NCBI GenBank assembly: GCA_963808015.1 | Contig: CAWEEG010000020.1 | Coordinates: forward strand, 1,051-65,050 | Reading direction: 5' to 3' | Source: an uncultured Actinomycetota bacterium | GTDB taxonomy: Bacteria; Actinomycetota; Acidimicrobiia; Spongiisociales; UBA5794 | DNA: 64,000 nt | Part shown: positions 1-46,459 of the stretch, one piece after another | Position numbering within the stretch: position 1 is the stretch's first letter | Layout: the number at the start of each line of letters is the position of its first letter | Program-made: the position numbers and the translations under genes | The notes under the pieces: model-generated | What the model saw: only the letters and a program-made list of their open reading frames with translations | What the model was told of the DNA's origin: nothing | Databases searched by the model: none

Positions 1-170
1 CTATCCTATGATTATGATACTTATCAAACTATTGAGAAATGACGAATAGTGGTTCTCATCTGGATTATATGATGAAACGGGTTCAGGGAATCGAAGGGCC
101 GGGTGTTTTCTTTTTCAGTGTTCTACTCGAACCCCTGACCCCTTGACCCCTCGGATCCTGACTTTACCCT

Positions 171-1860: not shown

Positions 1861-1971
1861 ATTTTAATCCTCGAAATACTACATGTATTCCTGTGGTTAA
1901 AATATTCGCCTTCCTTGATCTCGAACAAAATTGAACATTTTGAAACCGCCTCAATTGATTCAGGTTTCATT

Positions 1972-2736: not shown

Positions 2737-2825
2737 AGCAGTAAGGTTTTAGGCCGTTTTGGAAGAGAGATTTTTCATGAGGTAACTCCTGTCTTGGTGA
2801 AAAGGCAGCAGTGCTGGAATTTCTC

Positions 2826-2960
2826 CAATAAAAAAGCCGTTTGCAAGGAAACGGCTTTTTAGGGTTCTATAAATGATAAGTATGTCGTTCCCTACGCTGG
2901 AATTATCCAGATCAGGTTCAAAGGGTGTAATCTCAGGCGTCTTGCAGCCACCCCGCATGT
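2826..2960 (-). promoter_or_regulatory. TPP (THI-box) riboswitch with intrinsic-terminator expression platform
   Basis: The minus strand of 2884..2956 reads gcggggtggctgcaagacgCCTGAGAttacACCCTTTGAACCTGATCTGGATAATTCCAGCGTAGGGAAcgac, the canonical THI element core. It is followed (plus 2826..2860) by the hairpin GCCGTTT-ccttgc-AAACGGC plus a T-run. Located in the 5-prime leader of thiM. Confidence 0.9.
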
Positions 2961-3118
2961 TAATTTTTTTTATTCTAATCTCTAACAAACAGACAGTGAT
3001 AAGTCAACAATAAATTATATGCATAAATACATCAGAAATAGTATTTTATTTGTAGTATATCCTTATTGTCAGAATCTGATCCCCTGAAAACTGTATTAAT
3101 TAACAGAGATAAACGATG

Positions 3119-5519: not shown

Positions 5520-5715
5520 GACGCACCGAGGGGTTGCGTCTGGTTGGGAGGTGGCTGGGGAAACGGTTGGCGCGAGAGATCATCATCGGGTCGATCGACC
5601 GCAGGGGTTGTTGGCGTGACCGCTGAGGCAATTCGCCGTACGGAAGCGGACCTCCATGCCACGGCCCGAGAGATCGTCCCGGTGTGGGAGCTGCTCAGAC
5701 GCGGCGACTCCTCCT

Positions 5716-5846
5716 GGGCCATGGAACCGTTTTACCCCCTCCCGCCTCGCTGGGTTCGGTCAGGTTCGGCTGATCGTGGGTTGTGGAACCGTTTGACCCC
5801 CTCCGCCTCGCTGGGCTCGGCACCTCCCCCCTGAGGGGGAGGAATC
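5716..5846. repeat. interspersed repeat family 1, copy A (two GGAACCGTTTGACCCCCTCCGCCTCGCTGGG units plus hairpin)
   Basis: 5722..5757 and 5783..5819 are direct sub-repeats. 5823..5842 (cctcccccctgagggggagg) is a GC hairpin. Related copies at 16836..16955, 38719..38965 and 56938..57000. Lies between convergent gene ends. Confidence 0.8.
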
Positions 5847-5864
5847 CCAGGAGAGGCCTGGTTC

Positions 5865-32705: not shown

Positions 32706-33845
32706 TCAAGCAGATATGCCAGAAGCGAGACCGAGACTCGAGACGAGAGAGCTTGAGACACGAGACCGAGGGAAGGGTCGGGTCTCGGGTCTTGTGTCTC
32801 GGATCTCGGGTCTGTCCTCGACTACCAGCCCAGGATACTCGAGGACCGCATCGAGCCTCGGCGTCACGGGGCCCGGGAGGTCGGCTTCGATCACGGCGGT
32901 CTCGGGATCCTTCAGACCATGGCCGGTGAGGGTGCACACGATGGGGCCGTCCGGCAGTTCGTCGCGATACTTCAGGATCCCTGCAACACCGGCAGCTGAG
33001 GCAGGCTCGCAGAACACTCCTTCACGGGTGGCCAGGAATCGGTAGGCGTCGAGGATCTCATCGTCGGTGACGGCCTCGATTCGACCGCCGGATTCGTCTC
33101 GGGCCGCGACGGCTCCATCCCACGAGGCCGGGTTGCCGATTCGGATCGCCGTCGCAATCGTCTCGGGTTCGTCCACGATTTCTCCGTACACGATCGGCGC
33201 GGCGCCGGCCGCTTGGAATCCCCACATCAAGGGAGCCTCATCAACATCGGTGTATCCCTGCCAATAGGCGGTGATGTTCCCCGCGTTCCCGACAGGGAGT
33301 GCATGAACCGACGGCGCAGCGCCGAGAGTGTCCACGATCTCCCACGCGGCCGTCTTCTGGCCTGCGATTCGATACGGATTGATGGAGTTGACGAGCGCAA
33401 CGTCGTGGCTTCCGGTCAACTCCAGGACGATCGCAAGAGCATCGTCGAAGCTCCCGTCAATGGGAACAATCGTCGCGCCGTGCACGATCGCCTGAGCCAA
33501 CTTCCCGCGGGCGATCTTGCCGGACGGGATAACCACGATGGACGTGATGCCTGCGCGCTGCGCGTATGCAGCCGCCGACGCCGAGGTGTTCCCGGTCGAC
33601 GCACACGCCACGGCACGGGCTCCATCCTCTACCGCCTTCGACACCGCCAGGGTCATTCCGCGGTCCTTGAACGACCCGGTCGGATTGAGGCCCTCGAACT
33701 TGAGAAACACCTTCCGCTGAACGGCTTTCGAGAGTGCCGGCGCTGGAATGAGCGGCGTGTCGCCTTCGAGGAGGGTCACGACGGGCGTGTCCGGTCCCAC
33801 CGGGAGGCGATCCCGATATGCCTCGATGATGCCTTTGCGGCTCAT
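32706..33845 (-). CDS. thrC: threonine synthase (ORF 3-prime end runs through a repeat element)
   Basis: 379 aa. Contains [18 protein letters not shown] (PLP lysine motif), ASTGNTSAS and VGNAGN. The last ~35 aa ([21 protein letters not shown]...) are encoded by repeat family 2. Confidence 0.9.
32724..32820. repeat. repeat family 2 (inverted GAGACNN / NNGTCTC heptad arrays), copy 2
   Basis: The left arm aGCGAGACCGAGACTCGAGACGAGAGAGCTTGAGACACGAGACCGAG, the loop ggaagg, and the right arm GTCGGGTCTCGGGTCTTGTGTCTCGGATCTCGGGTCTG form a long imperfect hairpin. It overlaps the last ~35 codons of the thrC ORF. Confidence 0.8.
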
Positions 33846-35132
33846 GCCTCCTCGCTCTCAACTCGGATCACCGACGCCACATTGCGCAGGGCATCGACGT
33901 CGCGAAGATACCGCACCGCTTCACGCTGGGCGGATTCGCGAGCCCTGTGTGTAACGATCAACAGCAGGGCCTCGCTCCCCTCGCCCTCCTGCCACACCGA
34001 CTTGATTGACACGCCGGCATTGCCGAACGCTCCGGCGATTTGCGCCAGCACACCAGGACGGTCGTCGACTTCAAGGCGCATGTACCACTTGGTCGGGACA
34101 TCACCGAACGGAATCAGATCGCCCGGGCGAGAACCGGATCCTGGGCGCAACTTGTGCACCTGCGAGCGTCTCGCGGGCTGCGTCGATGATGTCGCCGAGA
34201 ACTGCGGTGGCAGTGGGAGCGCCACCGGCGCCGGGTCCGGAGAAGAGGAGTTCGCCCACGGAAGGCCCCTCGATGAAGATCGCGTTGGTCGCTCCACGGA
34301 TCGACGCGAGCGGATGATTGAGCGGGATCATCACCGGATGCACCCGGGCAGATACCCCTTCTCCGATCCGTTCGGCGATCCCGATGAGCTTCACGGCATA
34401 TCCGAAATCGGCGGCAAACGCCATGTCCACGGGAGAGAGAGAATCGATGCCCTCGTGGTAGACATCGTCGAGACCAACCCATGTGCCGAACGCCAGCGAG
34501 GCCAGGATCGCTGCCTTCGCTGCGGCGTCGGCACCCGAGACGTCAGCGGTGGGATCGGGTTCGGCGTATCCCAATTCCTGCGCTTCAGCGAGCGCGTCGC
34601 CGTAGTCGGCATTGTCTTCCGCCATCCGGGTCAGGATGAAGTTGGTGGTGCCGTTCACGATGCCGAGGACTCGCTCCACCGGCTCCCCGGCCAGTGTCTC
34701 CGACAGGGGCCGGATGATCGGGATCCCTCCGCCGACGGCCGCTTCGAACAAGAACGCCACACCAGAGCGCTCGGCCGCTGCGATCAGTTCGGGCCCACGA
34801 GATGCGACCAGTTCCTTGTTGGCCGTGACGACGGGCTTTCCCGCCTCGAGGGCAGCGAGCACGAGATCGCCGGCGAGGTCGCGGCCACCCATCAACTCCA
34901 CGACGAGATCGATATCTGGGTCGTCGATGACGCTCATCCGGTCGTCGGTGAGGACGCCGTCGGTGACGGTGAAGTCTCTTGGTTTGTCGAGATCCCGAAC
35001 CGCGACTCGCTTCACCCGAAGATCGAGCCCTGTTTTTGCGGCTATTGCGGCATGTTCATCGACGAGGCGTGCGACGAGCGTCCCTCCAACGGTTCCCGCT
35101 CCGAGAACACCGATGCCAATTGTTGAGTGCAT
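33842..35132 (-). CDS. hom: homoserine dehydrogenase with C-terminal ACT domain, one frame break near 34140
   Basis: The N-terminal piece has [19 protein letters not shown] and [11 protein letters not shown]. The ACT-domain piece ([31 protein letters not shown]) is in the frame of 33842..34297. The stop overlaps the thrC start (ATGA). Confidence 0.9.
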
Positions 35133-35160
35133 AGGGCAAACGATAGACCGACGGGTGTGT

Positions 35161-36430
35161 TCAGACGTCTCGACGGACGAGGTCCTCGTAGGCCTCTCGC
35201 CGGACCACCTCGCGCGCCATGCCGTCGCGGACGAAAACAACGGGCGGACGGCGAATCATGTTGTAGTTGCTGCCCATCGAATGCCCAGTACACGCCGGTC
35301 ACCGGCGTCGCAAGCACATCCCCGACAGCGAGGTCCTCGGGTACGTCGGCCTCTGCCACGATGACATCGCCCGACTCGCAGTGTTTGCCGACGATCCGCA
35401 CCTTCATCGGCCGATCGGCATCGGTCGCTCTCGGGAGGAACGCTTCGTATCCGCTTCCGTACAGGCTCGGACGCGGGTTGTCGCTCATGCCGCCATCAAC
35501 CGCCACGTACGTTCGTATGCCGGGGATGTCCTTGATCGTGCCCACGGTGTAGAGCGTCACCGCTGCACCCGCGACGATCGACCGTCCGGGTTCGGCGGTC
35601 CACGAGAGAGTCGATTCCCGCGCGTCGCGACATGCCCGAACCACGATATCCGCCCACTCCGTGATCGAAGGAGCCTCCTCACCGGTCACATACGCAACAC
35701 CGAGGCCCCCGCCGATCGAGAACTCGGGGAGATCGAGCGGTACGACGAACCCGGCGAGCACATCAACTGCCCGTCGATACGAGTCCGCGTCGAATACCTG
35801 GCTGCCGATGTGTGCGTGGACACCTTCGAGGGTCATCGCGGTTGACGCTTCGATTCGCGCCACTGCTGCGGAGGCTTCGCCCGACGTCAGGCCGAATCCG
35901 AATTTCGTGTCGGCGATACCCGTCTGGAGGTACTCATGCGTGTGCGCTTCGATCCCGGGAGTGAGTCGCACGAGAACCCTCGGCGGCGGAGCACCGGCTT
36001 CAACAAGCGCCTCGATTCGGTCGATCTCAACGAATGAATCGATCACGATCTGCCCCACGCCGGCGTCGAGCGCCGCCGCGAGTTCGCCGACCGACTTGTT
36101 GTTTCCGTGAAGAACCAGCCGGTCGGCGGGGACCCCGGCGTTGAGAGCCACGAAGAGTTCACCGCCCGTCGCAACGTCGAGCCGCATTCGCTCCTCGTAC
36201 GCCAGCTTGGCCATCGCCGTCGTCATGAACGCCTTCGTGGCGTACGCGACACCTTCACCGAACGCTGAGACCGCCTCGCGACACCGGGACCGCATCTGCT
36301 CTTCGTCGTACACGAACAGCGGCGTTTCAAACCGAGCTGCCAACTCGAGAACGTCCATCCCCCCGATGAACAACCGCCCACCAACGATCTCAGAGTTGTC
36401 GGGGAGAAGAGAACGGGGGATGGGGGTCAT
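35161..36430 (-). CDS. lysA: diaminopimelate decarboxylase, one frame break near 35283
   Basis: Contains TPLFVYDEE, YATKAF (PLP lysine), HAHIGSQ and GKHCESGD. After PVTGVY the frame shifts to GHSMGSNYNMIRRPPVVFVRDG...RRDV-stop at 35161. Confidence 0.92.
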
Positions 36431-36463
36431 AGGCGGGGCTCGCGAAGATCCGGATAGCCAACA

Positions 36464-36552
36464 CCAGACGCCAGACACGAGACAAGAGACACGAGACAGC
36501 GTCGCTGCGCGGGTCTCGGGTCTCGAGTCTCAGGTCTCGAGTCTCTTGTCTC
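36464..36552. repeat. repeat family 2, copy 3 (best hairpin)
   Basis: The left arm CCAGACGCCAGACACGAGACAAGAGACACGAGACA, the spacer gcgtcgctgcgcg, and the right arm GGTCTCGGGTCTCGAGTCTCAGGTCTCGAGTCTCTTGTCTCC. Sits exactly between the argS stop (36555) and the lysA start (36430). Confidence 0.85.
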
Positions 36553-36554
36553 CA

Positions 36555-38322
36555 TCACATTCTTTCTGGGACTTCTATGCCGAGCGTATCGAGGAGGAGG
36601 GCGAGGGTGTGACAGCGTGAGATCAACGAGCGATAGCCAGGAAGCCTGGCGGGCTGGATCCTCCTCGCGCAGGATGTGACACGCCTCATAGAACCGGTTG
36701 AAGTCGGTTGCCAGCTCGTACGCGTACTCGGTGAGCACATTCGGAGCCCGAACCTCCACCGCTCGCTCGATCACCTCGGGCAGCAGCAGAAGCCGCAGGA
36801 TCAGGTCTCGCTCCTGCTTCACCGTCGGGGGGATGATCATGCCCGGTTCGAGACCGAGTTCGGCCGCACGCCGCAGAATCGACGTGGTCCGCACCGCTCC
36901 GTACTGCAGATACGGGCCGGTCTTCCCCTCAAATGACGTGAAGCGGTCAAGATCGAAGCTGTAGTTCGACGTCCGATGATTTGAGAGGTCGCCGAACTTG
37001 AGAGCCCCGAGTCCGACCTGCCTGGCAATCCGCGCTCGCTCTTCTGCTGGATAGTCCTGGGCGATCGCTGCCTCGTCGAGCCGTTTCCGAGCCGCGTCGG
37101 TCACGAGATTCATGAGGTCCGTGAGGCGGAGGATCCCGCCTTCCCTCGTCTTGAATGGTTTCCCATCCGGTCCGTTGACGGTTCCGAACGCGATGTGTTC
37201 GAGTCCGACGTCGTCCGCAGCAAGACCGGACATCCGGGCAACCCTGAAGACCTGTTCGAAATGCAGGCCCTGCCGGGCATCAACGACGTAGAGCACGAGG
37301 TCATAGCCCTCTTCCACCCTCTGCTCGAGGGTCGCCAGATCCGTCGTGGAGTAGAGGTATGAGCCGTCGGAACGGGTCAACAGGAGCGGCGGCATCTCCT
37401 TCTTGTCATCCGGCTGTTCGACGTGGACGATCAGCGCCCCCTCCGACTCGCTGGCGAGATCATCGGCACTCATCAGCCGGTCGACGAGCGGAGCGAGTCG
37501 ATCATGCACCGTGCTCTCACCCCGCCACAGATCGAACTCGATGCCGAGATCTTCGAAGTCCTTCTTCTGTTCGGCGACCGAGACATCGTGATAGTGCCGC
37601 CACAGCGCCAAGTACCCCGGCCGACCGTTCTGCAGGTCGAACGTGGCCTGACGTGCGCGCTCAGCTTCATCGGGGTCGTCCTTGCACCGCTGGACGACGA
37701 CCGGGTACATCTCGGACAGATCGTCGAGCGTGACCGGCGACTCGTCGGGGTACGGACCGGTGAAGGCCGCGTCGAAGTAGGGAAGGTCGGGTTGGCGGCG
37801 CTCCAGTTCGATGATCAGCTGGCCAATCGGCATACCCCAGTCACCCATATGAATGTCGCCCACGACCTCGTGGCCTGCAACACGGAAGAGCCGCTTGAGG
37901 CTCTCACCAATGATCGAGGCGCGGAGATGCCCCACATGCATCGACTTCGACATGTTCGGACCGCCGTAGTCGACGATCACCTTGCGGCGAGGTTCCGGTG
38001 CGGCGATGCCGCTGCGCTCATCGTCCTCCATCATCTGCGCGTAGCGGGCGAGGTACTCGTCGGTGACGATGATGTTGATGAAGCCGGGACCGGCGATGTC
38101 GAGCGACGCGAATGCTGACCGATCGCCGAGGCGGTCGATCACCGACTGCGCCAACTCTCGCGGATTCTTGCCGATCTGCTTCGCAGCAGCGAGGGCGCCA
38201 TTGCATTGGTACTGCGCTAGTTCCGGACGTTGCGATGGAACGACCAGGCCGGCCGACCGGTCCACCCCCGCGGCGTCGAACGCGTCACCGAAGAGTTCGG
38301 AGAGGTCTGAGAGAAGGGACAT
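36555..38322 (-). CDS. argS: arginine--tRNA ligase, one frame break near 36615
   Basis: Contains ANPTGPL-equivalent NMSKSMHVGHLR (HIGH motif region), a class I core, and an anticodon-binding C-terminus. The native end ...TLALLLDTLGIEVPERM-stop is in the frame of ORF 36555..36740. Confidence 0.92.
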
Positions 38323-38377
38323 AGGGAGAATCCACCTAGGGGGGTTGTGAGGACCCGGAGGTTACAATCGTTTCAGC

Positions 38378-38452
38378 GCCCCAGTAGCTCAGGGGATAGA
38401 GCGCCGGCCTCCGGAGCCGGGAGCGCAGGTTCGATTCCTGCCTGGGGCACCA
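38378..38452 (+). tRNA. tRNA-Arg (anticodon CCG), CCA encoded
   Basis: Hand-folded cloverleaf. Acceptor is GCCCCAG/CTGGGGC. D arm is GCTC-aggggata-GAGC. Anticodon arm is CCGGC-ctCCGga-GCCGG. T arm is GCAGG-ttcgatt-CCTGC. Discriminator is A, followed by CCA. Confidence 0.9.
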
Positions 38453-38586
38453 GACCGCCGTCCGTTTCCTCACCCCCCGATCCCTTCTCGGGATCGGGAT
38501 CCGCACCAAACGTTCGACATCTCCCCTTGCCTCCCAATAGGTCAACCCCATGCCGGATGTCAACGTCCGGATGCCCCCACCAGACG

Positions 38587-38617
38587 GAGCGAGGGTTCGA
38601 TTCCTGCCTGGGGCACC
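38587..38617 (+). repeat. degenerate duplicate of the tRNA-Arg 3-prime end (att-like remnant)
   Basis: gagcgAGggttcgattcctgcctggggcacc matches tRNA positions 38421..38451 at 29 of 31 nt. No matching 5-prime half precedes it, so it is not a tRNA gene. Confidence 0.75.
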
Positions 38618-38718
38618 GTTTCGCACTACGTGCGAAGTAGTCCGTCCCCTCTTCGGGACTTGTTGCGAACGGCTAGTCGCCGATTTGGTGTGTCACCCTG
38701 ACTGTGACCCATTCAATC

Positions 38719-38965
38719 CGATTCCTCCCCCTCCTTCGGATTCCTCCCCTCAGGGGGAGGTGGCGCCGCCAGGCGGCGGAGGGGGTCAAGCGGTTCCACG
38801 ACCCACGAAGACCCGCCGCGCCTGAACGGCTCTCGCACTGGAACGCTTTGACCCCCTCCGTCAGCGGCTCCGCCCGGGTTTTGGACATGATCCGACACAG
38901 GGAACCGTTGCGTCGCGTACGGGGAGGCTCCGCCGCTGCCACCTCCCCCTGAGGGTGAGGAATCG
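38719..38965. repeat. interspersed repeat family 1, copy C: two copies in inverted orientation
   Basis: 38719..38803 is a reverse-oriented copy (GATTCCTCCCCTCAGGGGGAGGTGgcgccgccaggcggCGGAGGGGGTCAAGCGGTTCCACgaccc). 38838..38965 is a forward copy (ctGGAACGcTTTGACCCCCTCCGtcagcgGCTC...CACCTCCCCCTGAGGGtGAGGAATCgg). Confidence 0.75.
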
Positions 38966-39158
38966 GACCGAACCCTGCCGCGGTGCCAACCGAAGCCTCC
39001 ACGTTGCCACCGACCAACCGTGGATTGAATCTGCGCAGTGGAGGCGAAGGCTCCAAGCCGCGCTCCGAATCTGCGAGTTGATGGGACACAGTTAGGGGCT
39101 ATTTCCCCTAAATCGGATCGCCTGTCCTTTGGCAGCAAGGGTTTCCGGACTCCTGACT

Positions 39159-39174
39159 TGTGAAGGAATTCACA
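39159..39174. promoter_or_regulatory. perfect CRP/GlxR-type palindrome TGTGA-N6-TCACA upstream of the cytochrome operon
   Basis: The sequence is tTGTGAaggaatTCACAt. Its centre is ~126 nt upstream of the ATG at 39293, inside an otherwise non-coding, lower-GC stretch. Confidence 0.45.
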
Positions 39175-39292
39175 TCCGAGTGTGCGATTCCTAGCATTGC
39201 GTGGAAGTACGGAAGCGAGTCAACGTGCAGCTCACGAGCGGCGATGATCGGCGACCAGCCACTCGCTGGAGCCAGCTGGTTGAGACGCGTCC

Positions 39293-40804
39293 ATGACGGA
39301 CGCCGACACACCTCCGCCAGCTGATTCCGCGCCGCCGGAACCACCCGAGGAACGAGGCAGGCGCGACTGGGTGATCGGCCTTCTTGCCATCATTCTCCTC
39401 GTAGCCGGACCCATCGTCATCTTCGTCGGTATCCGCAACTCGGTCGAGGCCGCGAATGCCGACAACGCGTGGTCCGGTGTGCCGACAACGGTCCCGCACA
39501 CGGACCATTCACTCCTCATGACCGGCCCATACGAGACCGGCTCCGAGGTCACAGAAGGTTGCCTCGAGTGCCATGCGGAGGCGGGCGAACAGATGCTCCA
39601 GAGCGAGCACTGGTTGTGGGAGAACCCACCGGTCTCGCTGCCCGGACGCGACGAACCGGTCGCCCTCGGGAAGAAGAACTCCCTCAACAACTTCTGCACG
39701 GGCATCCAGGGCAACGAGCAGCAATGCACGACGTGCCACGCCGGGTACGGCTGGGAGGACGAGACCTTCGACTTCACGGACGAGACGAGGATCGACTGCC
39801 TCGTCTGTCACGACCAATCCGGGCAGTATGGCAAAACAGACTGGGGATACCCGGCCGAAGCGACCGATCTCGTACTCGCTGCGGGGAGCGTCGGTCGTCC
39901 AACGCGCACGAACTGCGGCTCGTGCCACAGCACCGGCGGCGGTGGCAACGGTGTGAAACACGGCGACCTCGACAACACCCTCAACTACCCGAACGAGACC
40001 ATCGACTTCCACATGGGCGTCCTGGACATTCAGTGCGTCGACTGCCACACGACCACCGACCACCAGATCGCGGGTACATCCACATCGGTGAAGCTCATCG
40101 ACGACAACCCGGTGTCGTGCACCGATTGTCACAACTCGCTCCCCCACGAGGATGACCGCCTCAACAGCCACACCGACCGAGTCGCCTGCGAAACGTGCCA
40201 CATCCCGGAATACGCCGTCAAGGATCCGACCAAACTCTGGTGGGACTGGTCGACCGCAGGTCAGGACGGCATCTCCGACGATCCGCACGAGTACCTCAAG
40301 ATCAAGGGCAGCTTTGTCTACGGCACGCAACTCATCCCTGAGTACTACTGGTTCGACGGCACAGCGGAACGCTACTTGCTTGGAGATCCGATCGACCCCG
40401 AGGGCATCACGATCCTCAACGACCCGAACGGAGGCGTCGACGATCCGGTCGCCAAGATCTACCCGTTCAAGATTCATCGCGGCCTTCAGCCATACGACGC
40501 CGTCCACAACTACTTCATCCAGCCGAATCTCGTGGGCGACGAGGGGTATTGGACGATCTTCGACTGGGATATCGCGCTGCAGAACGGCGCCGACGACACC
40601 GGCTTCGACTTCAGCGGTGAGTACGGGTTCGCGCGGAGCGACATGTACTGGCCGCTCGAGCACATGGTTGCCCCCGCCGGCGAGGCACTCCAATGCACGG
40701 CGTGCCACTCGGACGCCGGTCGTCTCGACTGGAAGGCTCTCGGTTACGACGCCGATCCGATGGACACCGCAGGCCAGCGAACTACCGACGGAAGTGACCG
40801 ATGA
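39293..40804 (+). CDS. octaheme c-type cytochrome, tetrathionate-reductase (Otr) family, N-terminal membrane anchor
   Basis: 503 aa intact. Eight CxxCH motifs: CLECH, CTTCH, CLVCH, CGSCH, CVDCH, CTDCH, CETCH, CTACH. NNFCTGIQGNEQQCTTCHAGYGW and CHSTGGGGNGVKHGD resemble the Otr-type octaheme family as I recall it. The N-terminal TM is VIGLLAIILLVAGPIVIFVGI. Confidence 0.75.
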   Translation: MTDADTPPPADSAPPEPPEERGRRDWVIGLLAIILLVAGPIVIFVGIRNSVEAANADNAWSGVPTTVPHTDHSLLMTGPYETGSEVTEGCLECHAEAGEQMLQSEHWLWENPPVSLPGRDEPVALGKKNSLNNFCTGIQGNEQQCTTCHAGYGWEDETFDFTDETRIDCLVCHDQSGQYGKTDWGYPAEATDLVLAAGSVGRPTRTNCGSCHSTGGGGNGVKHGDLDNTLNYPNETIDFHMGVLDIQCVDCHTTTDHQIAGTSTSVKLIDDNPVSCTDCHNSLPHEDDRLNSHTDRVACETCHIPEYAVKDPTKLWWDWSTAGQDGISDDPHEYLKIKGSFVYGTQLIPEYYWFDGTAERYLLGDPIDPEGITILNDPNGGVDDPVAKIYPFKIHRGLQPYDAVHNYFIQPNLVGDEGYWTIFDWDIALQNGADDTGFDFSGEYGFARSDMYWPLEHMVAPAGEALQCTACHSDAGRLDWKALGYDADPMDTAGQRTTDGSDR

Positions 40805-43630
40805 GACGCCGGCGATTCGCGGTGGTGCTCGGGGTGGCCGCCCTGTTCGCCGCTACGTTCCTCGGCGCCGCCGTTGACCCGTCGGCTGCGTCAACAAGCG
40901 ACGAGACGGACGGCGGGCTCGTGATCCCGCCCGGTGGCGGAGTGGTTCCACCGGAGGAGGTCCAGGATCTCGTCAACCCTCCCCCACCCCCGGAACCCAC
41001 GGGCAGCACAATGCACCCCACATTCGCGTTGCTCGATAGCGAGGCGACCAACGTGCTGTCGAGCGGCAGACCCGTCTCCACGCTCACAACGTGCGGGCAA
41101 TGCCATGACTCGAAGTTCATCGTTGAGCACAACTACCACGCCACAGTCGGCCTTGACAGCCTGACCGATCCCGGCACCGCCGCATCAGGACGGGCCTGGG
41201 ACATCTCCAACGGGTGGTTTGGGCGATGGAACCCCATTACGTACCGCTACCTGACTCCCGAGGGTGACGGCACCCTCGACCTCAGCACACCAGAGTGGAT
41301 CATGACCCTCGGTGCGCGCCACGCAGGAAGCGGACCTGCGACAACGTCACGCGAAGGTTCCGCGCTTGCGAACCTGGCACCGGACGTCACGGACCCTGAA
41401 ACGAACCTTCTCATGAACGACGGCGACACCGTCGTCGCGTGGGACTGGCAGAACTCCGGCGTCGAGGAAATCAACTGCTTCCTCTGCCACGTGCCGGTAT
41501 CGGACAACGATGCTCGTATCGCCGAACTCCAAGCCGGGCGGTTCGAATGGGCCAACACCGCAACACTCGCGGCGACGAGCGCCGTCGAACAGACGGCCGA
41601 TGGCTGGGCTTGGAACCCCGGAGCGTTCACGGAATCCGGGAGGGTCGACAACGAACACCTCCCGATCGGCAAGTCCACCAACGACAACTGTGGCCAATGC
41701 CACGGCACCGTGCACATGAGCGTCGACCCAATCGATGGACAGACACTGCTCAACGGTTGGGAGACCTACACCACCGGTCAGGTCTTCTCAGACCAGCGCC
41801 TCTCGACATCGGGCCTGAATCTCCCCGACAAGGACGACCTGAGTCGGGCCTGGGACATCCACGCCGAACGCGGCCTGGATTGCATCAGTTGCCACTCATC
41901 GATCAACAACAGCGCCCAGGTTGCCGAGGATGCCGCGAGCAAGCCGACACATCTGCTCTACGACCCGCGACGACCGAATCTCGACGAATACCTCAGTCGG
42001 CCGATCCACGAACTCGCGAAAGGCGACACCGCTCAGGGTACGGTCGCTCCCGAGTACGACGGCACGATGCGAACGTGCAGCGGCTGCCACGACCCCTCCG
42101 AGTCCCACGAATGGCTGCCCTATCAGGACCGCCACATGCAGGTGGTGGCGTGTGAAACATGCCACATCCCGACAGCGAACGCTCCGGCGGCTGAGCAGTA
42201 CGACTGGACCGTGATCCACACCGACGGCACTCCGCGCACACAGATCCGCGGCGCCGACGGACCGATCGAGAACGCCGCCACCATGATCGATGGTTTCGAC
42301 CCGGTGATCCTGCTGCGGTCCGACAACGCCGGGGAGATCAGCCTCTCGCCCTACAACCTCGTTGGATCCTGGTACTGGGCGCACGGGAGCGGGGATGCCG
42401 AGCGGCCCGTGCGATCCGCCGATCTGGAAGCGGCCTACCTCGACGGTGAAGGCGGCTACGACGCTGCAATCGTCGCCGCCTTCGACACAGATGGCGACGG
42501 CACCATCTCCGAAACCGAACTGGCGATCGATACCGATGAGAAGCGGTCGGTTGTTGCCTCGCGCCTCGAATCCCTCTCCCTCTCAAACCCGCACATCATC
42601 GGAGAGGTCCAGGCCTACAGCGTCGCCCACGGTGTGGTCGGCAGCGATTGGGCGATCAAGGACTGTCAGGTCTGCCATTCGAGCAACTCGAGGCTCAGCG
42701 CCGGAATGCGAGCTCGGCACGTACGTACCGGGCGGGGTCCTCCCCGCGTTCGTCGCAGACACCAACACCGAATCAACCGGAGTCATGACGATCGCCGAGG
42801 ACGGGTCGCTGGTCTACCTTCCCGAGACCACGTCTGGCGAAATCGAAGTGCTCGGCAGCGATACCGCCGGCTGGTCCGACTGGGTCGGACTTGCTGTGCT
42901 GCTCATGGTCCTCGTCGGCATCATCATCCACAGCTTCTTCCGATACTGCGCGCGCCGCTGCTGGAACCGCGGCGCCACCGTCAAACAGCCCGCCACCGCA
43001 GAGGTCTACATCTACACGAAGTACGAGCGGTTCTGGCACTGGATGCAGGCGATCGTGATCGGCGTTCTGATCGTGACCGGAATCGTCATCCACTGGCCGA
43101 CCAACGCCACAACGTTCAGCTGGATGATCGTCGCACACAACGTGACCGCGGTCATCCTCGTCATCAACGCACTCGTGGCCCTGGTCGACTCCATCGCCAC
43201 CGGTTCGGTAAAGCGGTTTATCCCCCACCCCCAGGGATTCTTCAGCCAGGCGATCGACCAGACCGTGTACTACGCAAAGGGCATCTTCCTGGGTGAACCG
43301 CATCCCCATGAGAAGCGTGTCGGCGCACGCCTGAACCCACTCCAGCAAGCCACCTACCTCGTGATCCTCAACATCCTGCTGCCCGGTCAGGTGATCACCG
43401 GCATTCTCATCTGGGGAGCACAGCGGTGGCCCGGCTTCACGTCTCGTCTGGGCGGCCTGGGGTTCCTCCTCCCGGTTCACAACCTCATCGCCTGGCTCTT
43501 CGCCGCGTTCCTCATCCTTCACATCTACCTCACCACCACCGGCGTCACCCCGCTCGCGAGCATCAAGGGCATGGTGACCGGCTGGGAGGAAGTTGAAGTC
43601 TCATCGGTTGTGGAGGAGGTGAAGACCTGA
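40801..43630 (+). CDS. multiheme cytochrome c fused to a membrane cytochrome b (HydC/FdnI-like); CbcL-like quinol oxidoreductase; one frame break near 42700
   Basis: Signal peptide MRRRRFAVVLGVAALFAATFLGAA. Seven CxxCH motifs: CGQCH, CFLCH, CGQCH, CISCH, CSGCH, CETCH, CQVCH. After CQVCHSSNSRLS the sense continues in the frame of ORF 42362..43630 (PECELGTYVPGG...) into five hydrophobic helices with YERFWHWMQA and HNVTA/HNLIA/HIYL histidines typical of FdnI/HydC b-cytochromes. ATGA overlap with the upstream gene. Confidence 0.65.
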
Positions 43631-44193
43631 TGGCCATCAAGCCGGTCGGCCCGTCGGTCCGCAAAGGCAAGGCTCCCAACCCTCGCCCGTTCCCGAACCC
43701 GTATCTCGTCGGCGTTGGCCTGGGCGTCGTGCTCTTCATATCCGTCCTCATCACGGGAGATGGCCTTGGGGCATCCGGCGCCGTTCAGCGCATCTGGGCG
43801 TGGTTCGAGAACCTGATCGCCCCCCAACACGTCGACACGAACATCTACCTCGTCAAGTACCGCGGGGGGTGATGCACAGCCGCTCAATCATTGGATCGTG
43901 ATGCTCGCGATCGGTGTCCTGATCGGCGGATTCATCTCCGGCCTTATCGGCAGACGCGCGTCTACACCGAGATCGTCAAAGGCCCTCGCATCTCAAACAA
44001 CACTCGGCTTCTATTCGCTCTCCTTGGCGGCTCCTTCGTTGGGTTCGGAGCGCGGTTCGCCAGGGGCTGCACGTCGAGCCAGGGCCTCACCGGGTCGGCG
44101 TTGCTCTCGGTCGGGAGTTGGGTCTTCATGATGGCGTTCTTCGCCGGCGCCCTCGCTGCCGCACCGTTCTTCAAGAAGCTGTGGAACGACTGA
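43630..44193 (+). CDS. YeeE/YedE-family sulfur-compound transporter half-protein, two frame breaks (~43866 G-run, ~43950)
   Basis: Pieces 43630..43872, the frame of 43898..44131 (WIVMLAIGVLIGGFISGLIGRR) and 43891..44193 (LLFALLGGSFVGFGARFARGCTSSQGLTG) together make a ~187 aa Sulf_transp-type protein with the conserved GC(T/S)S motif. TGATG overlaps at both ends. Confidence 0.6.
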
Positions 44194-45413
44194 TGCCATT
44201 CCCACTCGACCTCCACGAACTGGGCACCCCCGCTACCTACACGATCTTCGTGTTCATCGGCATCGGGTTCGGATTCATGCTCGAGCAAGCCGGGTTCGGG
44301 CGCAGCACGAAACTCGCCGCGCAGTTCTACTTCAAGGACTTCGCCATGTTCCGAGTCATGTTCACGGCTGTGATCACCGCCATGGTTCTGACCTTCGGAG
44401 CGGTCGGCATCGGCATCCTCGACTTCAGAAAGGTCTTTGTTCCCGGAACGTATCTGTGGCCGATCGCCATCGGCGGATTCATCCTCGGCGTCGGATTCCT
44501 CATCGGTGGCCTCTGCCCGGGAACGTCGATCGCAGGCGCCGCGACGCTCAAACTCGATGCCATGGTCTTCCTCGCCGGCGTCGTCATCGGTGTGTTCGTC
44601 TTCGGTGAGACGGTCCCCTACTTCATGGGGTTCTGGACAGCCTCGGACTTCGGACGACTCACACTCCCGGAGTGGCTGGGCATCCCAACCGGGGTCATCG
44701 TCTTGTTCATCGTCGTGTTCGCACTCCTGCTGTTCTGGGGTTCCGAAGCGCTCGAGAAGAAGCTCGACGGGACGGACCCGGCCGACGCCCCCAAAGGCCG
44801 CTACATCGGAGCCGGTGTGATTGTCGTCCTCGCTCTTCTTGTTCTCTTGCTCGGCGACCCGACGACCGGCGACTACTGGGATGCGGTGGCGGCCGACGAA
44901 CAGGCACGACTCGACAACCGTGAAGTGCAGATCCACCCGGGAGAGCTTCTCGGATTGATGAACGACACGTTCGTCAATCTCATCATGCTCGACGTACGCG
45001 ACCAGCGGGACTACAACCAGTTCCACCTCAGGGCCGCGCGCCAGACCGACCCGACGCTCGACGCCGTCGAGTCCGCCGCACCCGACCTGATCGGGCTCAC
45101 CCCGAGATCCGTCATCGTCGCGATGAGCAACGATGAACGCGACGCAACCGAGGCGTGGAAGACGCTCGTCGCCAACAACGTCATCAACACGTACATACTC
45201 GAAGGTGGGATCAACGAATGGATCGAAGTCTTCGGAGAAGATGCCGATCCGAGACCGACCACCTATCCGGACCAATTGGCGTTCACGTTCACATCAGCCC
45301 TCGGAGGTCGCTGCGTGGCCTCCGACCCCCACGCCGACGACTTCGAACTCATCTACGAGCCGAAAGTGGTGATCGCCGGCCCCGCAGCCGTAGTAGGCGG
45401 AGGATGCGGATAG
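44193..45413 (+). CDS. YeeE/YedE half-protein fused to a rhodanese-like domain lacking the catalytic cysteine
   Basis: The N-terminal ~200 aa are polytopic with GFLIGGLCPGTS (YeeE-type Cys motif). The C-terminal LIMLDVRDQRDYNQFHLRAA...VIVAMSNDERDATEAW...YILEGGINEW has the rhodanese fold pattern, but Met-Ser replaces the active-site Cys. It ends ...VVGGGCG. Confidence 0.6.
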   Translation: MPFPLDLHELGTPATYTIFVFIGIGFGFMLEQAGFGRSTKLAAQFYFKDFAMFRVMFTAVITAMVLTFGAVGIGILDFRKVFVPGTYLWPIAIGGFILGVGFLIGGLCPGTSIAGAATLKLDAMVFLAGVVIGVFVFGETVPYFMGFWTASDFGRLTLPEWLGIPTGVIVLFIVVFALLLFWGSEALEKKLDGTDPADAPKGRYIGAGVIVVLALLVLLLGDPTTGDYWDAVAADEQARLDNREVQIHPGELLGLMNDTFVNLIMLDVRDQRDYNQFHLRAARQTDPTLDAVESAAPDLIGLTPRSVIVAMSNDERDATEAWKTLVANNVINTYILEGGINEWIEVFGEDADPRPTTYPDQLAFTFTSALGGRCVASDPHADDFELIYEPKVVIAGPAAVVGGGCG

Positions 45414-45997: not shown

Positions 45998-46125
45998 CTC
46001 CGATCGACTGTGAGAAAGGGTACCCGGGACCAAAGTCCCATATTTACAAATCGTTTGCGCCCTTCCAGGTCGTGGCAATACACTGTTGCTACCCCGCCGA
46101 GAGCTGGCTCCCAAGCGGGGTACCT

Positions 46126-46141
46126 TGTGAACCGATTCACA
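46126..46141. promoter_or_regulatory. perfect CRP/GlxR-type palindrome TGTGA-N6-TCACA upstream of the WhiB-like gene
   Basis: The sequence is tTGTGAaccgatTCACAt. It ends 42 nt upstream of the GTG at 46184. Confidence 0.5.
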
Positions 46142-46183
46142 TTCACGAGGCCATATCAGAATCCGCTTCGAGGAGACATTACT

Positions 46184-46459
46184 GTGCTTACCGTGACCGA
46201 CTGGCGAGAACTGGCCGCCTGTCGTGACTCCGATCCAGACCTGTTCTTCCCCATTGGGACAACAGGCCCCGCCACCGACATGATCCGCCAGTCAGTGGCT
46301 ATCTGCTCTGCCTGCTCAATGCAGGAAGAGTGTCTCCAATACGCCTTGGAGACGAACCAGGAAGCCGGCGTCTGGGGTGCCTACCCCGAAGACGACCGAC
46401 GTCGCCTCAGGAAGCGCTGGTTGGCCGAGCGCCGCCGCCAACGTCAAGCGGCGAGCTAG
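46184..46459 (+). CDS. whiB: WhiB-family (Wbl) Fe-S transcriptional regulator
   Basis: DWRELAACRDSDPDLFFP...AICSACSMQEECLQYALETNQEAGVWG has four Cys in the Wbl pattern (C-Xn-CxxC-X5-C) and a GVWGG-like turn, followed by a basic tail. The start is GTG at 46184 or 46193. Confidence 0.85.
   Translation: MLTVTDWRELAACRDSDPDLFFPIGTTGPATDMIRQSVAICSACSMQEECLQYALETNQEAGVWGAYPEDDRRRLRKRWLAERRRQRQAAS

What the first reader, a model, noticed from the sequence alone, without database searches (positions are those of the whole stretch)
39293..45413. Four-gene overlapping operon: Otr-type octaheme cytochrome, heptaheme-c/cytochrome-b fusion and two YeeE/YedE proteins. Candidate sulfur-oxyanion (tetrathionate/thiosulfate) respiratory module in an actinobacterial-type genome
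All four junctions overlap: ATGA at 40801-40804, TGATG at 43628-43632 and TGATG at 44191-44195. This implies one translationally coupled unit. Gene 1 has eight CxxCH motifs and the sequence character of the Shewanella Otr octaheme family, which reduces tetrathionate, nitrite and hydroxylamine. It is anchored by one N-terminal TM helix. Gene 2 links seven c-hemes to an FdnI/HydC-type membrane cytochrome b, which would draw electrons from the quinol pool. Genes 3 and 4 are the two halves of a YeeE/YedE (TsuA-type) thiosulfate or sulfur-compound channel, the second fused to a rhodanese-like domain. The combination reads as a self-contained chain. Quinol would pass electrons to the b/c-heme wire and then to the octaheme reductase on the outer face of the membrane, with import and handling of the sulfur product. 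Multiheme cytochrome respiratory modules are rare in Actinobacteria. I do not know this specific Otr + CbcL-like + split YeeE-rhodanese linkage as a described system.
Basis: partly seen in the sequence, partly recalled or inferred. Interest (0 to 1): 0.85.

Follow-up and report, generated by a model that had tools for sequence, protein, structure and literature searches.

The report
Conserved Otr cytochrome sulfur-handling operon
This is a real four-gene operon that joins an octaheme tetrathionate-reductase-type enzyme, a quinone-linked heme wire and a split sulfur channel with an outward-facing thiol arm; the same cassette recurs undescribed in all 160 related loci fetched, so it offers a physiological context for an enzyme whose natural role is unclear.

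Summary
The four genes, their overlapping junctions, 8 and 7 CxxCH motifs, the cytochrome b, the two YeeE halves and the rhodanese-like domain are all present. In this window, gene 2 is broken by one inserted base. Gene 3 is broken by two insertion events, of 1 and 2 bases. Near-identical metagenome contigs (99.0-99.5%) carry the genes they reach intact, and similar indels hit argS, lysA, hom and thrC, so these are assembly errors.

Gene 1 is a true Otr-family member. The order g1-g2-g3-g4 is conserved in every sufficiently long locus among 80 genome loci (Chloroflexota, a few Acidimicrobiia) and 80 metagenome loci.

The YeeE pair is the split PmpA/PmpB type. The rhodanese-like domain lacks a catalytic Cys, is predicted to lie outside the membrane, and ends in an invariant GGCG tail. 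A second variant fuses Otr to the heme domain, lacks cytochrome b and sits beside MtrA/MtrB-like genes.

Most likely function: quinol-driven reduction of an S-S sulfur compound at the outer membrane face, coupled to sulfur capture and import. Substrate and direction are inferred. I found no published description. It is a new variant of a known kind.

The parts
39159..39197 (+). Putative promoter/operator. A perfect CRP-type palindrome TGTGAAGGAATTCACA lies at 39159-39174, followed by a -10-like TAGCAT at 39192-39197, about 95 nt upstream of the g1 start.
   Evidence: The palindrome core is conserved upstream of g1 in all five Acidimicrobiia loci (one, L007, is imperfect at the 3' end). TGTGA-N6-TCACA occurs only twice in 64 kb, against 0.04 expected. 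Function is inferred.
39293..40804 (+). g1: membrane-anchored Otr-family octaheme c-type cytochrome, 503 aa. It has one N-terminal TM helix at about residues 26-47 and eight CxxCH motifs.
   Evidence: TIGR04315 546 bits (cut-off 375). PF11783 E=9e-56. 1sp3 E=9e-140 over residues 72-492. G126-K127, which align with G55-K56 of Otr, and N132, N133 and C135 are conserved in at least 97% of 76 sequences (the reference plus 75 homologues).
40801..43630 (+). g2: signal/anchor, heptaheme c domain, one TM helix and a four-helix diheme cytochrome b of FdnI/HydC/PhsC type. It is 942 aa when intact. The window copy is frameshifted by an extra base at about 42710.
   Evidence: Seven invariant CxxCH motifs and eight further invariant His in the c domain. 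H746, H779, H893 and H907 are invariant in the b domain. PF01292 E=1.5e-18. NF011582 PhsC 117 bits, below its cut-off of 204. In Foldseek the b domain best matches FdnI 1kqf_C and HyaC 6g94. The gene is intact in L001.
43630..44193 (+). g3: PmpA-like subunit, the C-terminal-half homologue of YeeE. It is 186 aa when intact, has four TM helices, is N-in/C-in, and has a conserved Cys in the motif RGCTS. The window copy carries +1 at 43861 and +2 at 43955-43956, which gives an in-frame TGA at 43870.
   Evidence: PF04143 E=4e-19, matching profile positions 178-309. Conservation. Positive-inside counts. Indels.
44193..45413 (+). g4: PmpB-like subunit, the N-terminal-half homologue of YeeE, with a conserved Cys in the motif GGxCPGTS and two extra TM helices. 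An extracytoplasmic Cys-less rhodanese-like domain follows (aa 250-345, nt 44940-45227). The protein ends in an invariant GGCG tail (nt 45399-45410).
   Evidence: PF04143 E=1.8e-12 (profile 9-198) and PF00581 E=7.9e-9. GGCG is conserved in at least 97% of 63 sequences and the loop is M-S-N-D-E. Topology. AF2 and Foldseek give rhodanese hits only. Stand-alone signal-anchored versions of the domain exist.
38378..38617 (+). Context. tRNA-Arg(CCG) lies at 38378-38452. A 32-nt repeat of its 3' end lies at 38586-38617. This is an att-like remnant directly upstream of the operon.
   Evidence: The tRNA 3'-end sequence also matches upstream of the cassette in L003 (three copies), L005 and L007.

Best explanation
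The operon encodes a four-protein complex on the outer face of the cytoplasmic membrane of a monoderm, Acidimicrobiia-type actinobacterium.

Proposed mechanism:
1. Menaquinol is oxidised at the FdnI/HydC-type diheme cytochrome b of g2.
2. Electrons cross the membrane through the two b hemes and run along the seven bis-His-type c hemes of g2.
3. They reach the membrane-anchored Otr-family octaheme enzyme g1. Its Lys-ligated active-site heme reductively cleaves an S-S bond in an inorganic sulfur compound. Tetrathionate is the most likely substrate; polysulfide or sulfane sulfur is the alternative.
4. g3 and g4 form a PmpA/PmpB-type split YeeE pore with one conserved Cys in each half.
5. g4 also displays a Cys-less rhodanese-like domain outside the membrane. 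This domain ends in an invariant GGCG thiol tail.
6. The tail is proposed to capture the sulfur substrate or product as a Cys adduct and hand it into the Cys relay of the pore for import.

Shown: gene content, family memberships, conserved ligand and Cys residues, strict synteny, and a sister variant in which Otr is fused to the heme domain.

Inferred: topology (from the positive-inside rule and the signal-anchored stand-alone homologues), direction of electron flow, substrate identity, and the role of the GGCG tail.
For: - Otr membership, with the position aligned to Otr Lys56 conserved in at least 97% of 76 sequences.
- g2 has seven invariant CxxCH motifs and eight further invariant His, which suits a wire rather than an enzyme. 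Its b domain has four invariant His with the 14-residue spacing I recall for FdnI. Its best structural matches are FdnI and HyaC.
- The order g1-g2-g3-g4 is found in all 80 genome loci and all 80 metagenome loci wherever the contig reaches.
- Otr and the g2-type heme domain are one polypeptide in variant B: L142 3754-6801, with TIGR04315 at 583 bits and TIGR04314 at 81 bits. This argues that they work as one unit.
- g3 and g4 are Sulf_transp halves that keep the counterparts of the essential YeeE Cys91 and Cys293 (PMC7449682, PMC11582611).
- g4 topology is N-out with six TM helices. K+R counts are 2.5/1.1/3.9 in the inside loops and 0.3/0.2/1.2 in the outside loops.
- The same domain occurs as proteins of about 210 aa with an N-terminal Lys/Arg plus a single helix, that is, a signal anchor.
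- Tetrathionate is known to thiosulfonate carrier cysteines (PMC11073785, discussing DsrE3/TusA).
- A divergent SoxY carrier sits next to otr in lucinid symbionts (PMC11237559).
- From my own knowledge, not checked here: E0' of tetrathionate/thiosulfate is about +198 mV and that of menaquinone about -74 mV. This makes reduction by menaquinol favourable and the reverse reaction unfavourable.
Against: - No experiment exists on any member of this cassette.
- Otr also reduces nitrite and hydroxylamine in vitro (cited in PMC7887784 and PMC13510729), and its in vivo role is unsettled.
- An FdnI-type b with a cytoplasmic-side quinone site conserves energy when run as a quinone reductase, so the architecture also suits an oxidative direction.
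- Variant B has MtrA/MtrB-like genes instead of a quinol dehydrogenase. That is not what a simple soluble-tetrathionate reductase would need.
- The tested split YedE1E2 imports zero-valent sulfur, not thiosulfate (PMC10812762).
- The TM halves of g4 were modelled poorly (pLDDT 50-70), and no fold match to YeeE was obtained.
- The window copy itself is frameshifted.
Confidence: 0.5

Rival explanations
1. The module runs oxidatively. The Otr-type enzyme oxidises a reduced sulfur species, such as sulfide or polysulfide, or sulfur bound to the GGCG arm as in the Sox pathway. Electrons pass through the c hemes and the FdnI-like b into menaquinone. In diderm variant B they pass out through MtrA/MtrB to extracellular acceptors. 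The split YeeE imports sulfur for cytoplasmic oxidation, as SoxT does.
For: - The FdnI/HyaC-like b is the best structural match. From textbook knowledge, these proteins are quinone reductases that build a proton-motive redox loop.
- The C-terminal GGCG resembles the SoxY swinging arm of an oxidative pathway (PMC11237559).
- YeeE-like SoxT proteins import sulfur for oxidation (PMC11582611).
- MtrA/MtrB adjacency in variant B fits export of electrons.
Against: - All activities reported for Otr are reductions.
- Thiosulfate-to-tetrathionate oxidation cannot reduce menaquinone. This rests on potentials from memory.
- No Sox, Dsr or sHdr genes were seen in the window or among the conserved flanking gene clusters.
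- MtrA/MtrB conduits also import electrons or feed surface reductases.
Confidence: 0.2
2. The module handles selenium or tellurium rather than sulfur. It would reduce selenite or tellurite at the outer face, capture the product on the thiol arm and import it through a YedE-type selenium channel.
For: - The best, though weak, NCBIfam hits of g3, the PmpB-like part and the rhodanese-like domain are selenium-associated families: YedE/FdhT at 38-45 bits, TIGR04112 at 19.6 bits and rhodanese_LYCAU at 19-20 bits.
- Weak hits to the ExtN and GSU2204 families of the Geobacter selenite/tellurite cluster.
- A rhodanese-like lipoprotein ExtH with porin ExtI is linked to selenite uptake (reference 58 cited in PMC13510729).
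Against: - All these scores are far below the family cut-offs, and TsuA models score almost the same.
- Respiratory-scale machinery with 15 hemes is excessive for trace-element uptake.
- No selenoprotein or SelD/SelA context was seen in the window.
Confidence: 0.1
3. It is a nitrite or hydroxylamine reductase for ammonification or detoxification. The linkage to YeeE would then be unrelated to the enzyme's substrate.
For: Otr reduces nitrite and hydroxylamine in vitro (Atkinson et al. 2007, as cited in PMC7887784 and PMC13510729).
Against: - The co-occurrence with the split YeeE pair and the thiol-tail domain is strict, with no exception in 160 loci. This is hard to explain for nitrogen chemistry.
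- No nitrogen-cycle genes were found among the conserved flanking gene clusters.
Confidence: 0.07
4. In this particular genome the operon is a decaying pseudogene cluster, and the frameshifts in g2 and g3 are real.
For: Three indel events break g2 and g3 in the window.
Against: - Similar inserted bases disrupt argS, lysA, hom and thrC in the same window.
- 13 of the 14 gap positions are insertions in the window.
- Contigs L001 and L002, 99.0-99.5% identical and from two other samples, encode every one of these genes they reach intact.
Confidence: 0.05

Closest known systems
Shewanella oneidensis octaheme tetrathionate reductase Otr (PDB 1sp3; TIGR04315)
   Same: g1 aligns over 421 residues (E=9e-140), has all eight CxxCH motifs, and has a conserved Lys at the position aligned with Otr Lys56. 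It scores well above the family cut-off.
   Different: - g1 is anchored by an N-terminal TM helix in a monoderm cell.
- Proteobacterial otr genes sit behind a monoheme cytochrome c and a DUF3373 protein, or stand alone. They have no cytochrome b and no YeeE genes.
Geobacter CbcL and other multiheme-c/HydC-FdnI-type cytochrome b quinone-linked proteins; E. coli FdnI; Salmonella PhsC
   Same: A multiheme c domain is joined to a four-helix diheme b. The b domain matches PF01292, PhsC (117 bits), and FdnI and HyaC by fold.
   Different: - It is below the PhsC equivalog cut-off.
- The heptaheme domain has no PDB match and only weak similarity to MmcA (TIGR04314).
- It is dedicated to an Otr partner, and is fused to Otr in variant B.
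- Homology to CbcL itself was not tested.
PmpA/PmpB (YedE1E2) split YeeE-family sulfur transporters; full-length YeeE/TsuA with YeeD/TsuB
   Same: There are two half-size subunits in the order C-half then N-half. Each has one conserved Cys, matching YeeE Cys293 and Cys91 (PMC11582611, PMC7449682).
   Different: - The PmpB-like subunit has two extra TM helices and an outward-facing domain.
- No TusA/YeeD-type cytoplasmic partner is encoded in the operon.
- The counterpart of YeeE Cys22 is absent.
- TsuA equivalog cut-offs are not reached.
SoxY swinging-arm sulfur carrier; Wolinella Sud polysulfide-sulfur transferase
   Same: It is an extracytoplasmic protein that presents a single reactive Cys on a Gly-rich C-terminal tail (GGCG here; GGCGG in SoxY, from memory). 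Like Sud, it has a rhodanese fold outside the cytoplasm.
   Different: - No SoxY family hit was obtained.
- The fold is rhodanese-like, not the SoxY beta-sandwich.
- The rhodanese active-site Cys that Sud uses is missing.
- It is membrane-tethered and fused to a channel subunit.
Otr plus cytochrome b561 gene cluster noted in an Ignavibacteriae MAG (PMC7509429)
   Same: Otr is encoded next to a membrane cytochrome b and is proposed to draw electrons from the quinone pool.
   Different: That report mentions no heptaheme fusion, no YeeE halves and no rhodanese/GGCG protein.

Membership tests
Otr, tetrathionate reductase family octaheme cytochrome (TIGR04315) | Whole-protein score above the curated cut-off | tested here: met
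   546.1 bits against a cut-off of 375.
Otr, tetrathionate reductase family octaheme cytochrome (TIGR04315) | Eight CxxCH heme-binding motifs | tested here: met
   Motifs at residues 90, 145, 169, 208, 248, 276, 299 and 468. All align with 1sp3.
Otr, tetrathionate reductase family octaheme cytochrome (TIGR04315) | Lys outside the CxxCH motif that ligates the active-site heme (Lys56 of 1sp3; the ligand role is recalled from Mowat et al. 2004) | tested here: met
   K127 aligns with K56 and is conserved in at least 97% of 76 sequences. This is sequence-level evidence only.
Otr, tetrathionate reductase family octaheme cytochrome (TIGR04315) | Tetrathionate reductase activity | not testable with these tools
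   This needs an enzyme assay.
Prokaryotic cytochrome b561 / FdnI-HydC-PhsC type (PF01292) | Pfam gathering score, and four His ligands for two b hemes | tested here: met
   67.7 bits against 30.1. H746, H779, H893 and H907 are invariant, with TM4 spacing of 14. Foldseek gives FdnI 1kqf_C with TM-score 0.63 normalised to the target.
PhsC thiosulfate reductase cytochrome b subunit (NF011582 equivalog) | Score above the equivalog cut-off | tested here: not met
   117.1 bits against a cut-off of 204. It is PhsC-like but not PhsC.
CbcL-type multiheme-c/cytochrome-b fusion | Sequence homology to Geobacter CbcL beyond shared domain types | not tested
   Only the architecture (c hemes plus HydC/FdnI-type b) was compared.
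YeeE/YedE sulfur transport family (PF04143) | Pfam gathering score, and conserved pore cysteines equivalent to YeeE Cys91 and Cys293 | tested here: met
   g3 scores 69.7 bits and g4 47.9 bits against 27. C146 in RGCTS and C108 in GGxCPGTS are conserved in at least 97% of sequences. The mapping follows PMC11582611.
TsuA/YeeE thiosulfate transporter (NF041049, NF052577) | Equivalog cut-off, and a single 9-TM chain with three Cys | tested here: not met
   24.8 bits against 645 and 31.6 bits against 400. The protein is split into two genes. The Cys22 counterpart is absent; the loop reads LExAGFG.
Rhodanese (PF00581) | Domain score and fold | tested here: met
   36.3 bits against 22.2. The AF2 domain has pLDDT 80-94, and Foldseek returns rhodanese domains such as 3nhv and 5ve3.
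Rhodanese (PF00581) | Catalytic Cys in the active-site loop | tested here: not met
   The loop is M-S-N-D-E with no Cys. Each loop residue is conserved in 70-97% or more of 63 sequences, and S-N-D-E predominates in the stand-alone homologues.
SoxY sulfur carrier | C-terminal Gly-Gly-Cys-Gly(-Gly) arm on a SoxY fold | tested here: inconclusive
   The GGCG end is invariant. However, no SoxY family hit appeared in Pfam or NCBIfam, and the domain fold is rhodanese-like. This is a resemblance of motif only.

The most novel reading that the evidence does not exclude
Otr-family enzymes may act physiologically on a protein-bound sulfur substrate.

- A membrane-tethered swinging-arm cysteine (the invariant GGCG tail on a Cys-less rhodanese-like scaffold) captures tetrathionate or polysulfide as a Cys-thiosulfonate or persulfide.
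- Otr reduces the adduct.
- The arm feeds the Cys relay of a split YeeE pore.

This would be a carrier-based sulfur respiration, like the Sox pathway run in reverse. It recurs in many Chloroflexota genomes and in some Acidimicrobiia.

The diderm version, in which Otr is fused to the heme domain and sits beside MtrA/MtrB, would couple this sulfur chemistry to electron exchange across the outer membrane.
Probability: 0.25. Interest if true: 0.85.

Novelty: new variant of a known kind. Interest (0 to 1): 0.68.

Why it matters
- The natural role and electron supply of Otr, solved in 2004, are still debated. Genome surveys score otr as a stand-alone marker for tetrathionate reduction.
- Here, a large Otr clade is locked to a dedicated quinone-linked heme wire and to a sulfur channel with an external thiol arm.
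- That linkage points to sulfur rather than nitrogen chemistry. It supplies a testable complex for monoderm bacteria. It suggests that abundant Anaerolineae of sediments and wastewater, and some marine Acidimicrobiia, take part in cycling of intermediate sulfur species.
- The MtrA/MtrB-linked variant hints at a link between sulfur intermediates and extracellular electron transfer.

Tried and rejected
- A selenocysteine reading of the in-frame TGA in g3 was rejected. The stop arises from a +1/+2 indel pair that is absent from the 99%-identical contig L001.
- Programmed frameshifting in g2 was rejected for the same reason. The family consensus SRLxAxMQLAxYVPGG matches the L001 reading.
- Fold confirmation of the YeeE half of g4 failed. 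The TM region had low pLDDT, and Foldseek returned only rhodanese hits.
- The heptaheme domain of g2 gave no PDB match by profile or by fold.
It was repeated with P0001.
- The ArsR-type regulator of the Chloroflexota cassettes was tested as a BigR/SqrR-like persulfide sensor. Its invariant Cys does not align with the BigR Cys, and it scores only as a generic ArsR/SmtB protein. No conclusion was drawn.
- I looked for a third copy of the tRNA 3' end downstream of g4, which would delimit an island. None was found.
- Literature searches for the cassette found only isolated mentions of otr and one Otr plus cytochrome b561 cluster.
- The neighbourhoods of the stand-alone rhodanese-GGCG proteins could not be looked up one by one.


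Full report
**1. The observation**

The interval holds four same-strand genes with overlapping junctions exactly as stated. These are ATGA at 40801-40804, TGATG at 43628-43632 and TGATG at 44191-44195. g1 (39293-40804, 503 aa) has eight CxxCH motifs and one N-terminal hydrophobic helix.

Two genes are not intact in the window.
- g2 changes frame near 42710.
- g3 has an in-frame TGA at 43870-43872, and the reading frame is shifted between 43861 and 43956.

A look-up of the exact g1 protein found two JGI metagenome contigs. L001 is 99.0% identical over 16 kb and L002 is 99.5% identical. On L001, g2 is one ORF of 942 aa and g3 one ORF of 186 aa; L002 ends inside g2 before the frameshift site. Base-by-base comparison with L001 shows 14 gap positions, and 13 of them are extra bases in the window. 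Three indel events fall in g2 and g3. Seven fall inside thrC, hom, lysA and argS, all of which are intact on the metagenome contigs. Breaks in four housekeeping genes cannot be biological. I therefore treat all of them as assembly or sequencing indels and analysed the repaired proteins.

**2. What the four proteins are**

g1 is a bona fide Otr-family octaheme cytochrome.
- TIGR04315 scores 546 bits against a cut-off of 375.
- PF11783 gives E=9e-56.
- PDB 1sp3 (Shewanella Otr) gives E=9e-140 over residues 72-492.
- The residue aligned with Otr Lys56 is K127. I recall Lys56 as the unusual Lys ligand of the active-site heme, from Mowat et al. 2004. K127 and the following NNFC motif are conserved in at least 97% of 76 sequences, the reference plus 75 homologues.

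g2 (942 aa) has several parts.
- It begins with an N-terminal signal or anchor and a Pro-rich linker.
- A c-heme domain follows, with seven invariant CxxCH motifs and eight further invariant histidines. That is enough for all-bis-His electron-transfer hemes.
- One TM helix and then a four-helix cytochrome b follow.
- The b domain gives PF01292 E=1.5e-18. It is PhsC-like at 117 bits, below that equivalog's cut-off of 204.
- H746, H779, H893 and H907 are invariant. The 14-residue spacing on the last helix matches what I recall for FdnI.
- In an AlphaFold model (pLDDT 74), the b domain's best PDB matches are FdnI (1kqf_C) and HyaC (6g94). The heme domain matches nothing in the PDB.

g3 matches the C-terminal half of the Sulf_transp profile, and g4 matches the N-terminal half. 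This is the PmpA/PmpB arrangement described for split YeeE-family proteins (PMC11582611). Each subunit keeps one Cys. C146 of g3 lies in RGCTS and corresponds to YeeE Cys293. C108 of g4 lies in GGxCPGTS and corresponds to YeeE Cys91.

**3. The C-terminal part of g4**

This part is the least conventional. It scores as a rhodanese domain (PF00581, E=8e-9), and its model (pLDDT 80-94) matches only rhodanese structures.

- The active-site loop has no cysteine. It reads M-S-N-D-E and is conserved.
- The protein ends in GGCG, conserved in at least 97% of the 63 sequences from the genome loci. G404-C405-G406 are invariant in 38 database sequences, and GGCG is invariant in 12 stand-alone relatives.

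Topology points outside the cell.
- YeeE has nine TM helices and a cytoplasmic C-terminus, so its N-terminus is periplasmic. Cys22 and Cys91 are on the cytoplasmic side (PMC7449682, PMC11073785).
- g4 has the four helices of the N-half plus two more. The AlphaFold helices are 12-32, 51-72, 88-105, 121-150, 166-192 and 202-220.
- Averaged over 63 sequences, K+R counts are 2.5, 1.1 and 3.9 in loops 1, 3 and 5. They are 0.3, 0.2 and 1.2 in the N-terminus and loops 2 and 4.
- g3 has a strongly positive N-terminus (5.2 K+R) and is N-in/C-in.
- g4 is therefore N-out, and the rhodanese-like domain with its thiol tail is predicted to be extracytoplasmic.

Independent support comes from a search of 1.84 billion representative proteins with this domain alone. 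It found 330 relatives in two architectures. One is the fusion of about 410 aa. The other is a protein of about 210 aa with a Lys/Arg-rich start, a single hydrophobic helix, a GQPT motif, the domain and the C-terminal GGCG. The second type is a signal-anchored exported protein.

**4. Conservation of the linkage**

- A protein search with g2 returned more than 1,200 clusters. The top 120 were all full-length (673-965 aa, nearly all about 900-965). They carried only generic names such as 'thiosulfate reductase cytochrome b subunit' or 'cytochrome b/b6 domain-containing protein'.
Two patterns can hit one gene, so this means at least about 290 genes.
- Among the best 80 loci, six are from Acidimicrobiia or Actinomycetota MAGs and one is labelled Vicinamibacterales. 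Nearly all the rest are Chloroflexota, mostly Anaerolineae such as Ardenticatenaceae, Caldilineaceae, Promineifilaceae and Ca. Leptofilum.
- In every locus whose contig is long enough, the order is g1-g2-g3-g4, without exception.
- By contrast, otr in Shewanella algae and Marinobacter follows a monoheme cytochrome c and a DUF3373 protein. In Malonomonas it stands alone. None of these has a cytochrome b or YeeE genes nearby.

**5. A second variant**

A metagenome scan with the stand-alone rhodanese-GGCG proteins again recovered the cassette in every sufficiently long locus. It split the loci into two types.

- Variant A (32 loci) is like the window.
- Variant B has at least 23 loci. L142 was inspected in detail.
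  - Otr and the g2-type heme domain form one ORF of 1,015 aa. It scores TIGR04315 at 583 bits and TIGR04314 at 81 bits.
  - There is no cytochrome b.
  - The PmpB-like protein (196 aa) and the rhodanese-GGCG protein (215 aa) are separate genes. The split falls between TM5 and TM6 of g4.
  - A DmsE-family decaheme cytochrome follows (TIGR03508, 271 bits against a cut-off of 192).
  - An MtrB/PioB outer-membrane protein comes next (TIGR03509, 468 bits against a cut-off of 240).
- MtrA- and/or MtrB-like genes flank 17 further loci of the metagenome scan, most of them variant B. They flank none of the 80 variant-A genome loci.

The invariant core is therefore Otr, the heme domain, PmpA, PmpB and the rhodanese-GGCG domain. 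The wiring module differs between the variants. The Otr-heme-domain fusion argues that g1 and g2 work as one unit.

**6. Regulation and setting**

- In the Chloroflexota loci, an ArsR/SmtB regulator of about 113 aa lies directly upstream. It is found in 52 loci, on the same strand in nearly all. It has an invariant Cys that does not align with the BigR sensing Cys.
- This regulator is absent from the window.
- In the window and four other Acidimicrobiia loci, a CRP-type palindrome is conserved: TGTGAAGGAATTCACA at 39159-39174 in the window. A -10-like TAGCAT follows it.
- The motif TGTGA-N6-TCACA occurs only twice in the window, against 0.04 expected. The other copy lies upstream of a WhiB-like gene.
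- The operon lies about 840 bp downstream of tRNA-Arg(CCG). The 3' end of this tRNA is duplicated at 38586-38617, and the same sequence appears three times in L003. This suggests past integration events at the site.
- The flanking gene order argS-lysA-hom-thrC-rho-rpmE-prfA is the usual actinobacterial one. That comparison is from memory, against Mycobacterium.

**7. How it most likely works**

In my model, g1, the c domain of g2 and the g4 domain all sit on the outer face of the membrane of a monoderm cell. The quinone pool is connected to Otr through two b hemes and seven c hemes.

The strict coupling to a Cys-relay sulfur pore and an external thiol arm points to sulfur chemistry. It argues against the nitrite and hydroxylamine activities that Otr shows in vitro.

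- I favour reduction of an S-S compound by menaquinol (confidence 0.5). Tetrathionate is the family's known efficient substrate. From memory, its couple with thiosulfate lies far above menaquinone.
- Tetrathionate readily thiosulfonates carrier cysteines (discussed in PMC11073785). The arm could therefore capture the substrate or the product and pass it to the pore.
- Polysulfide or sulfane sulfur is a serious alternative substrate. The only split YeeE pair tested imports zero-valent sulfur and not thiosulfate (PMC10812762).
- The oxidative direction stays open (0.2). An FdnI-type b is energy-conserving as a quinone reductase. GGCG arms are typical of the oxidative Sox pathway. Variant B is wired to an outer-membrane conduit rather than to a quinol dehydrogenase.
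- A selenium or tellurium role (0.1) rests only on weak family hits.
- Nitrogen chemistry (0.07) and true pseudogenisation (0.05) are unlikely.

**8. Comparison with what is known, and novelty**

Each part belongs to a known family. These are Otr, FdnI/HydC-type b with multiheme c (as in CbcL), PmpAB-type YeeE and the rhodanese fold.

The literature I could search contains three relevant items.
- otr used as a marker gene in Anaerolineae and other MAGs (PMC7887784, PMC9040765).
- One remark on an Otr plus cytochrome b561 cluster in an Ignavibacteriae MAG (PMC7509429).
- A divergent soxY next to otr in lucinid symbionts (PMC11237559).

I found no description of the cassette, of the Cys-less rhodanese with a GGCG tail, or of the MtrA/MtrB-linked variant. 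The library searched is incomplete, so prior description cannot be excluded. I file this as a new variant of a known kind, with moderately high interest.

Noticed in passing
window 1-3500: The first 3.5-4 kb have 42-46% G+C, against 61-64% for the rest of the window. They encode thiamine-biosynthesis-like genes on the minus strand behind a TPP riboswitch at 2871-2965. The sharp compositional break suggests a chimeric join in the assembly or a recent foreign insertion.
   Followed up: partly
window 32733-43956: The window carries 14 gap positions relative to the 99%-identical contig L001, and 13 of them are inserted bases. They break thrC, hom, lysA (three events), argS, g2 and g3. Any ORF-based reading of this window needs frameshift-tolerant methods.
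   Followed up: yes
window 38420-38451 and 38586-38617; L003 5557-5903: The 3' end of tRNA-Arg(CCG) is repeated 166 bp downstream (32 nt, 94% identical). The related MAG locus L003 has three such copies. This looks like scars of repeated integration at this tRNA, just upstream of the operon. No integrase was seen nearby.
   Followed up: partly
window 38712-38972; related copies at 5675-5856 and 16835-16963: A nested inverted-repeat element of about 260 nt folds far better than shuffled controls (-151 kcal/mol, z = -5.9). It has partial copies elsewhere in the window, so it is a dispersed palindromic (REP/MITE-like) repeat. No Rfam family matched.
   Followed up: partly
window 46126-46141: A second perfect CRP-type site, TGTGAACCGATTCACA, lies upstream of a WhiB-like gene (ORF 46010-46459). 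This mirrors the CRP-whiB1 link known in mycobacteria (from memory). It suggests that the operon and whiB share a CRP-family regulator.
   Followed up: no
L008-L082, about 30-500 bp upstream of g1 (e.g. L027 6024-6365): Chloroflexota versions of the cassette have a fifth conserved gene, an ArsR/SmtB-family regulator of about 113 aa with an invariant Cys in the motif ICSALADP. Its ligand is unknown. The Cys does not align with the sensing Cys of BigR.
   Followed up: partly
L142 3754-11703 and about 20 other metagenome loci (L087, L088, L098, L102, L116, L158, L163 and others): This is the diderm variant of the cassette. Otr is fused to the heptaheme domain and there is no cytochrome b. The PmpB-like and rhodanese-GGCG genes are separate. 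A DmsE-family decaheme cytochrome and an MtrB/PioB outer-membrane protein follow.
   Followed up: partly
window 42460-42525 (g2 residues about 554-575): A conserved EF-hand-like loop (FDxDGDGxISExEL; D562 and E573 invariant) lies inside the heme domain of g2. The Pfam EF-hand hits are weak (E about 0.004-0.007). It may be a calcium site.
   Followed up: no
window 5865-7883 and 7981-9834, minus strand: Two adjacent paralogous genes encode large secreted proteins of 672 and 617 aa. They have TolB-like beta-propeller repeats and repeated FG-GAP/VCBS-like 'GDWDGDG' motifs. Their function is unknown.
   Followed up: no
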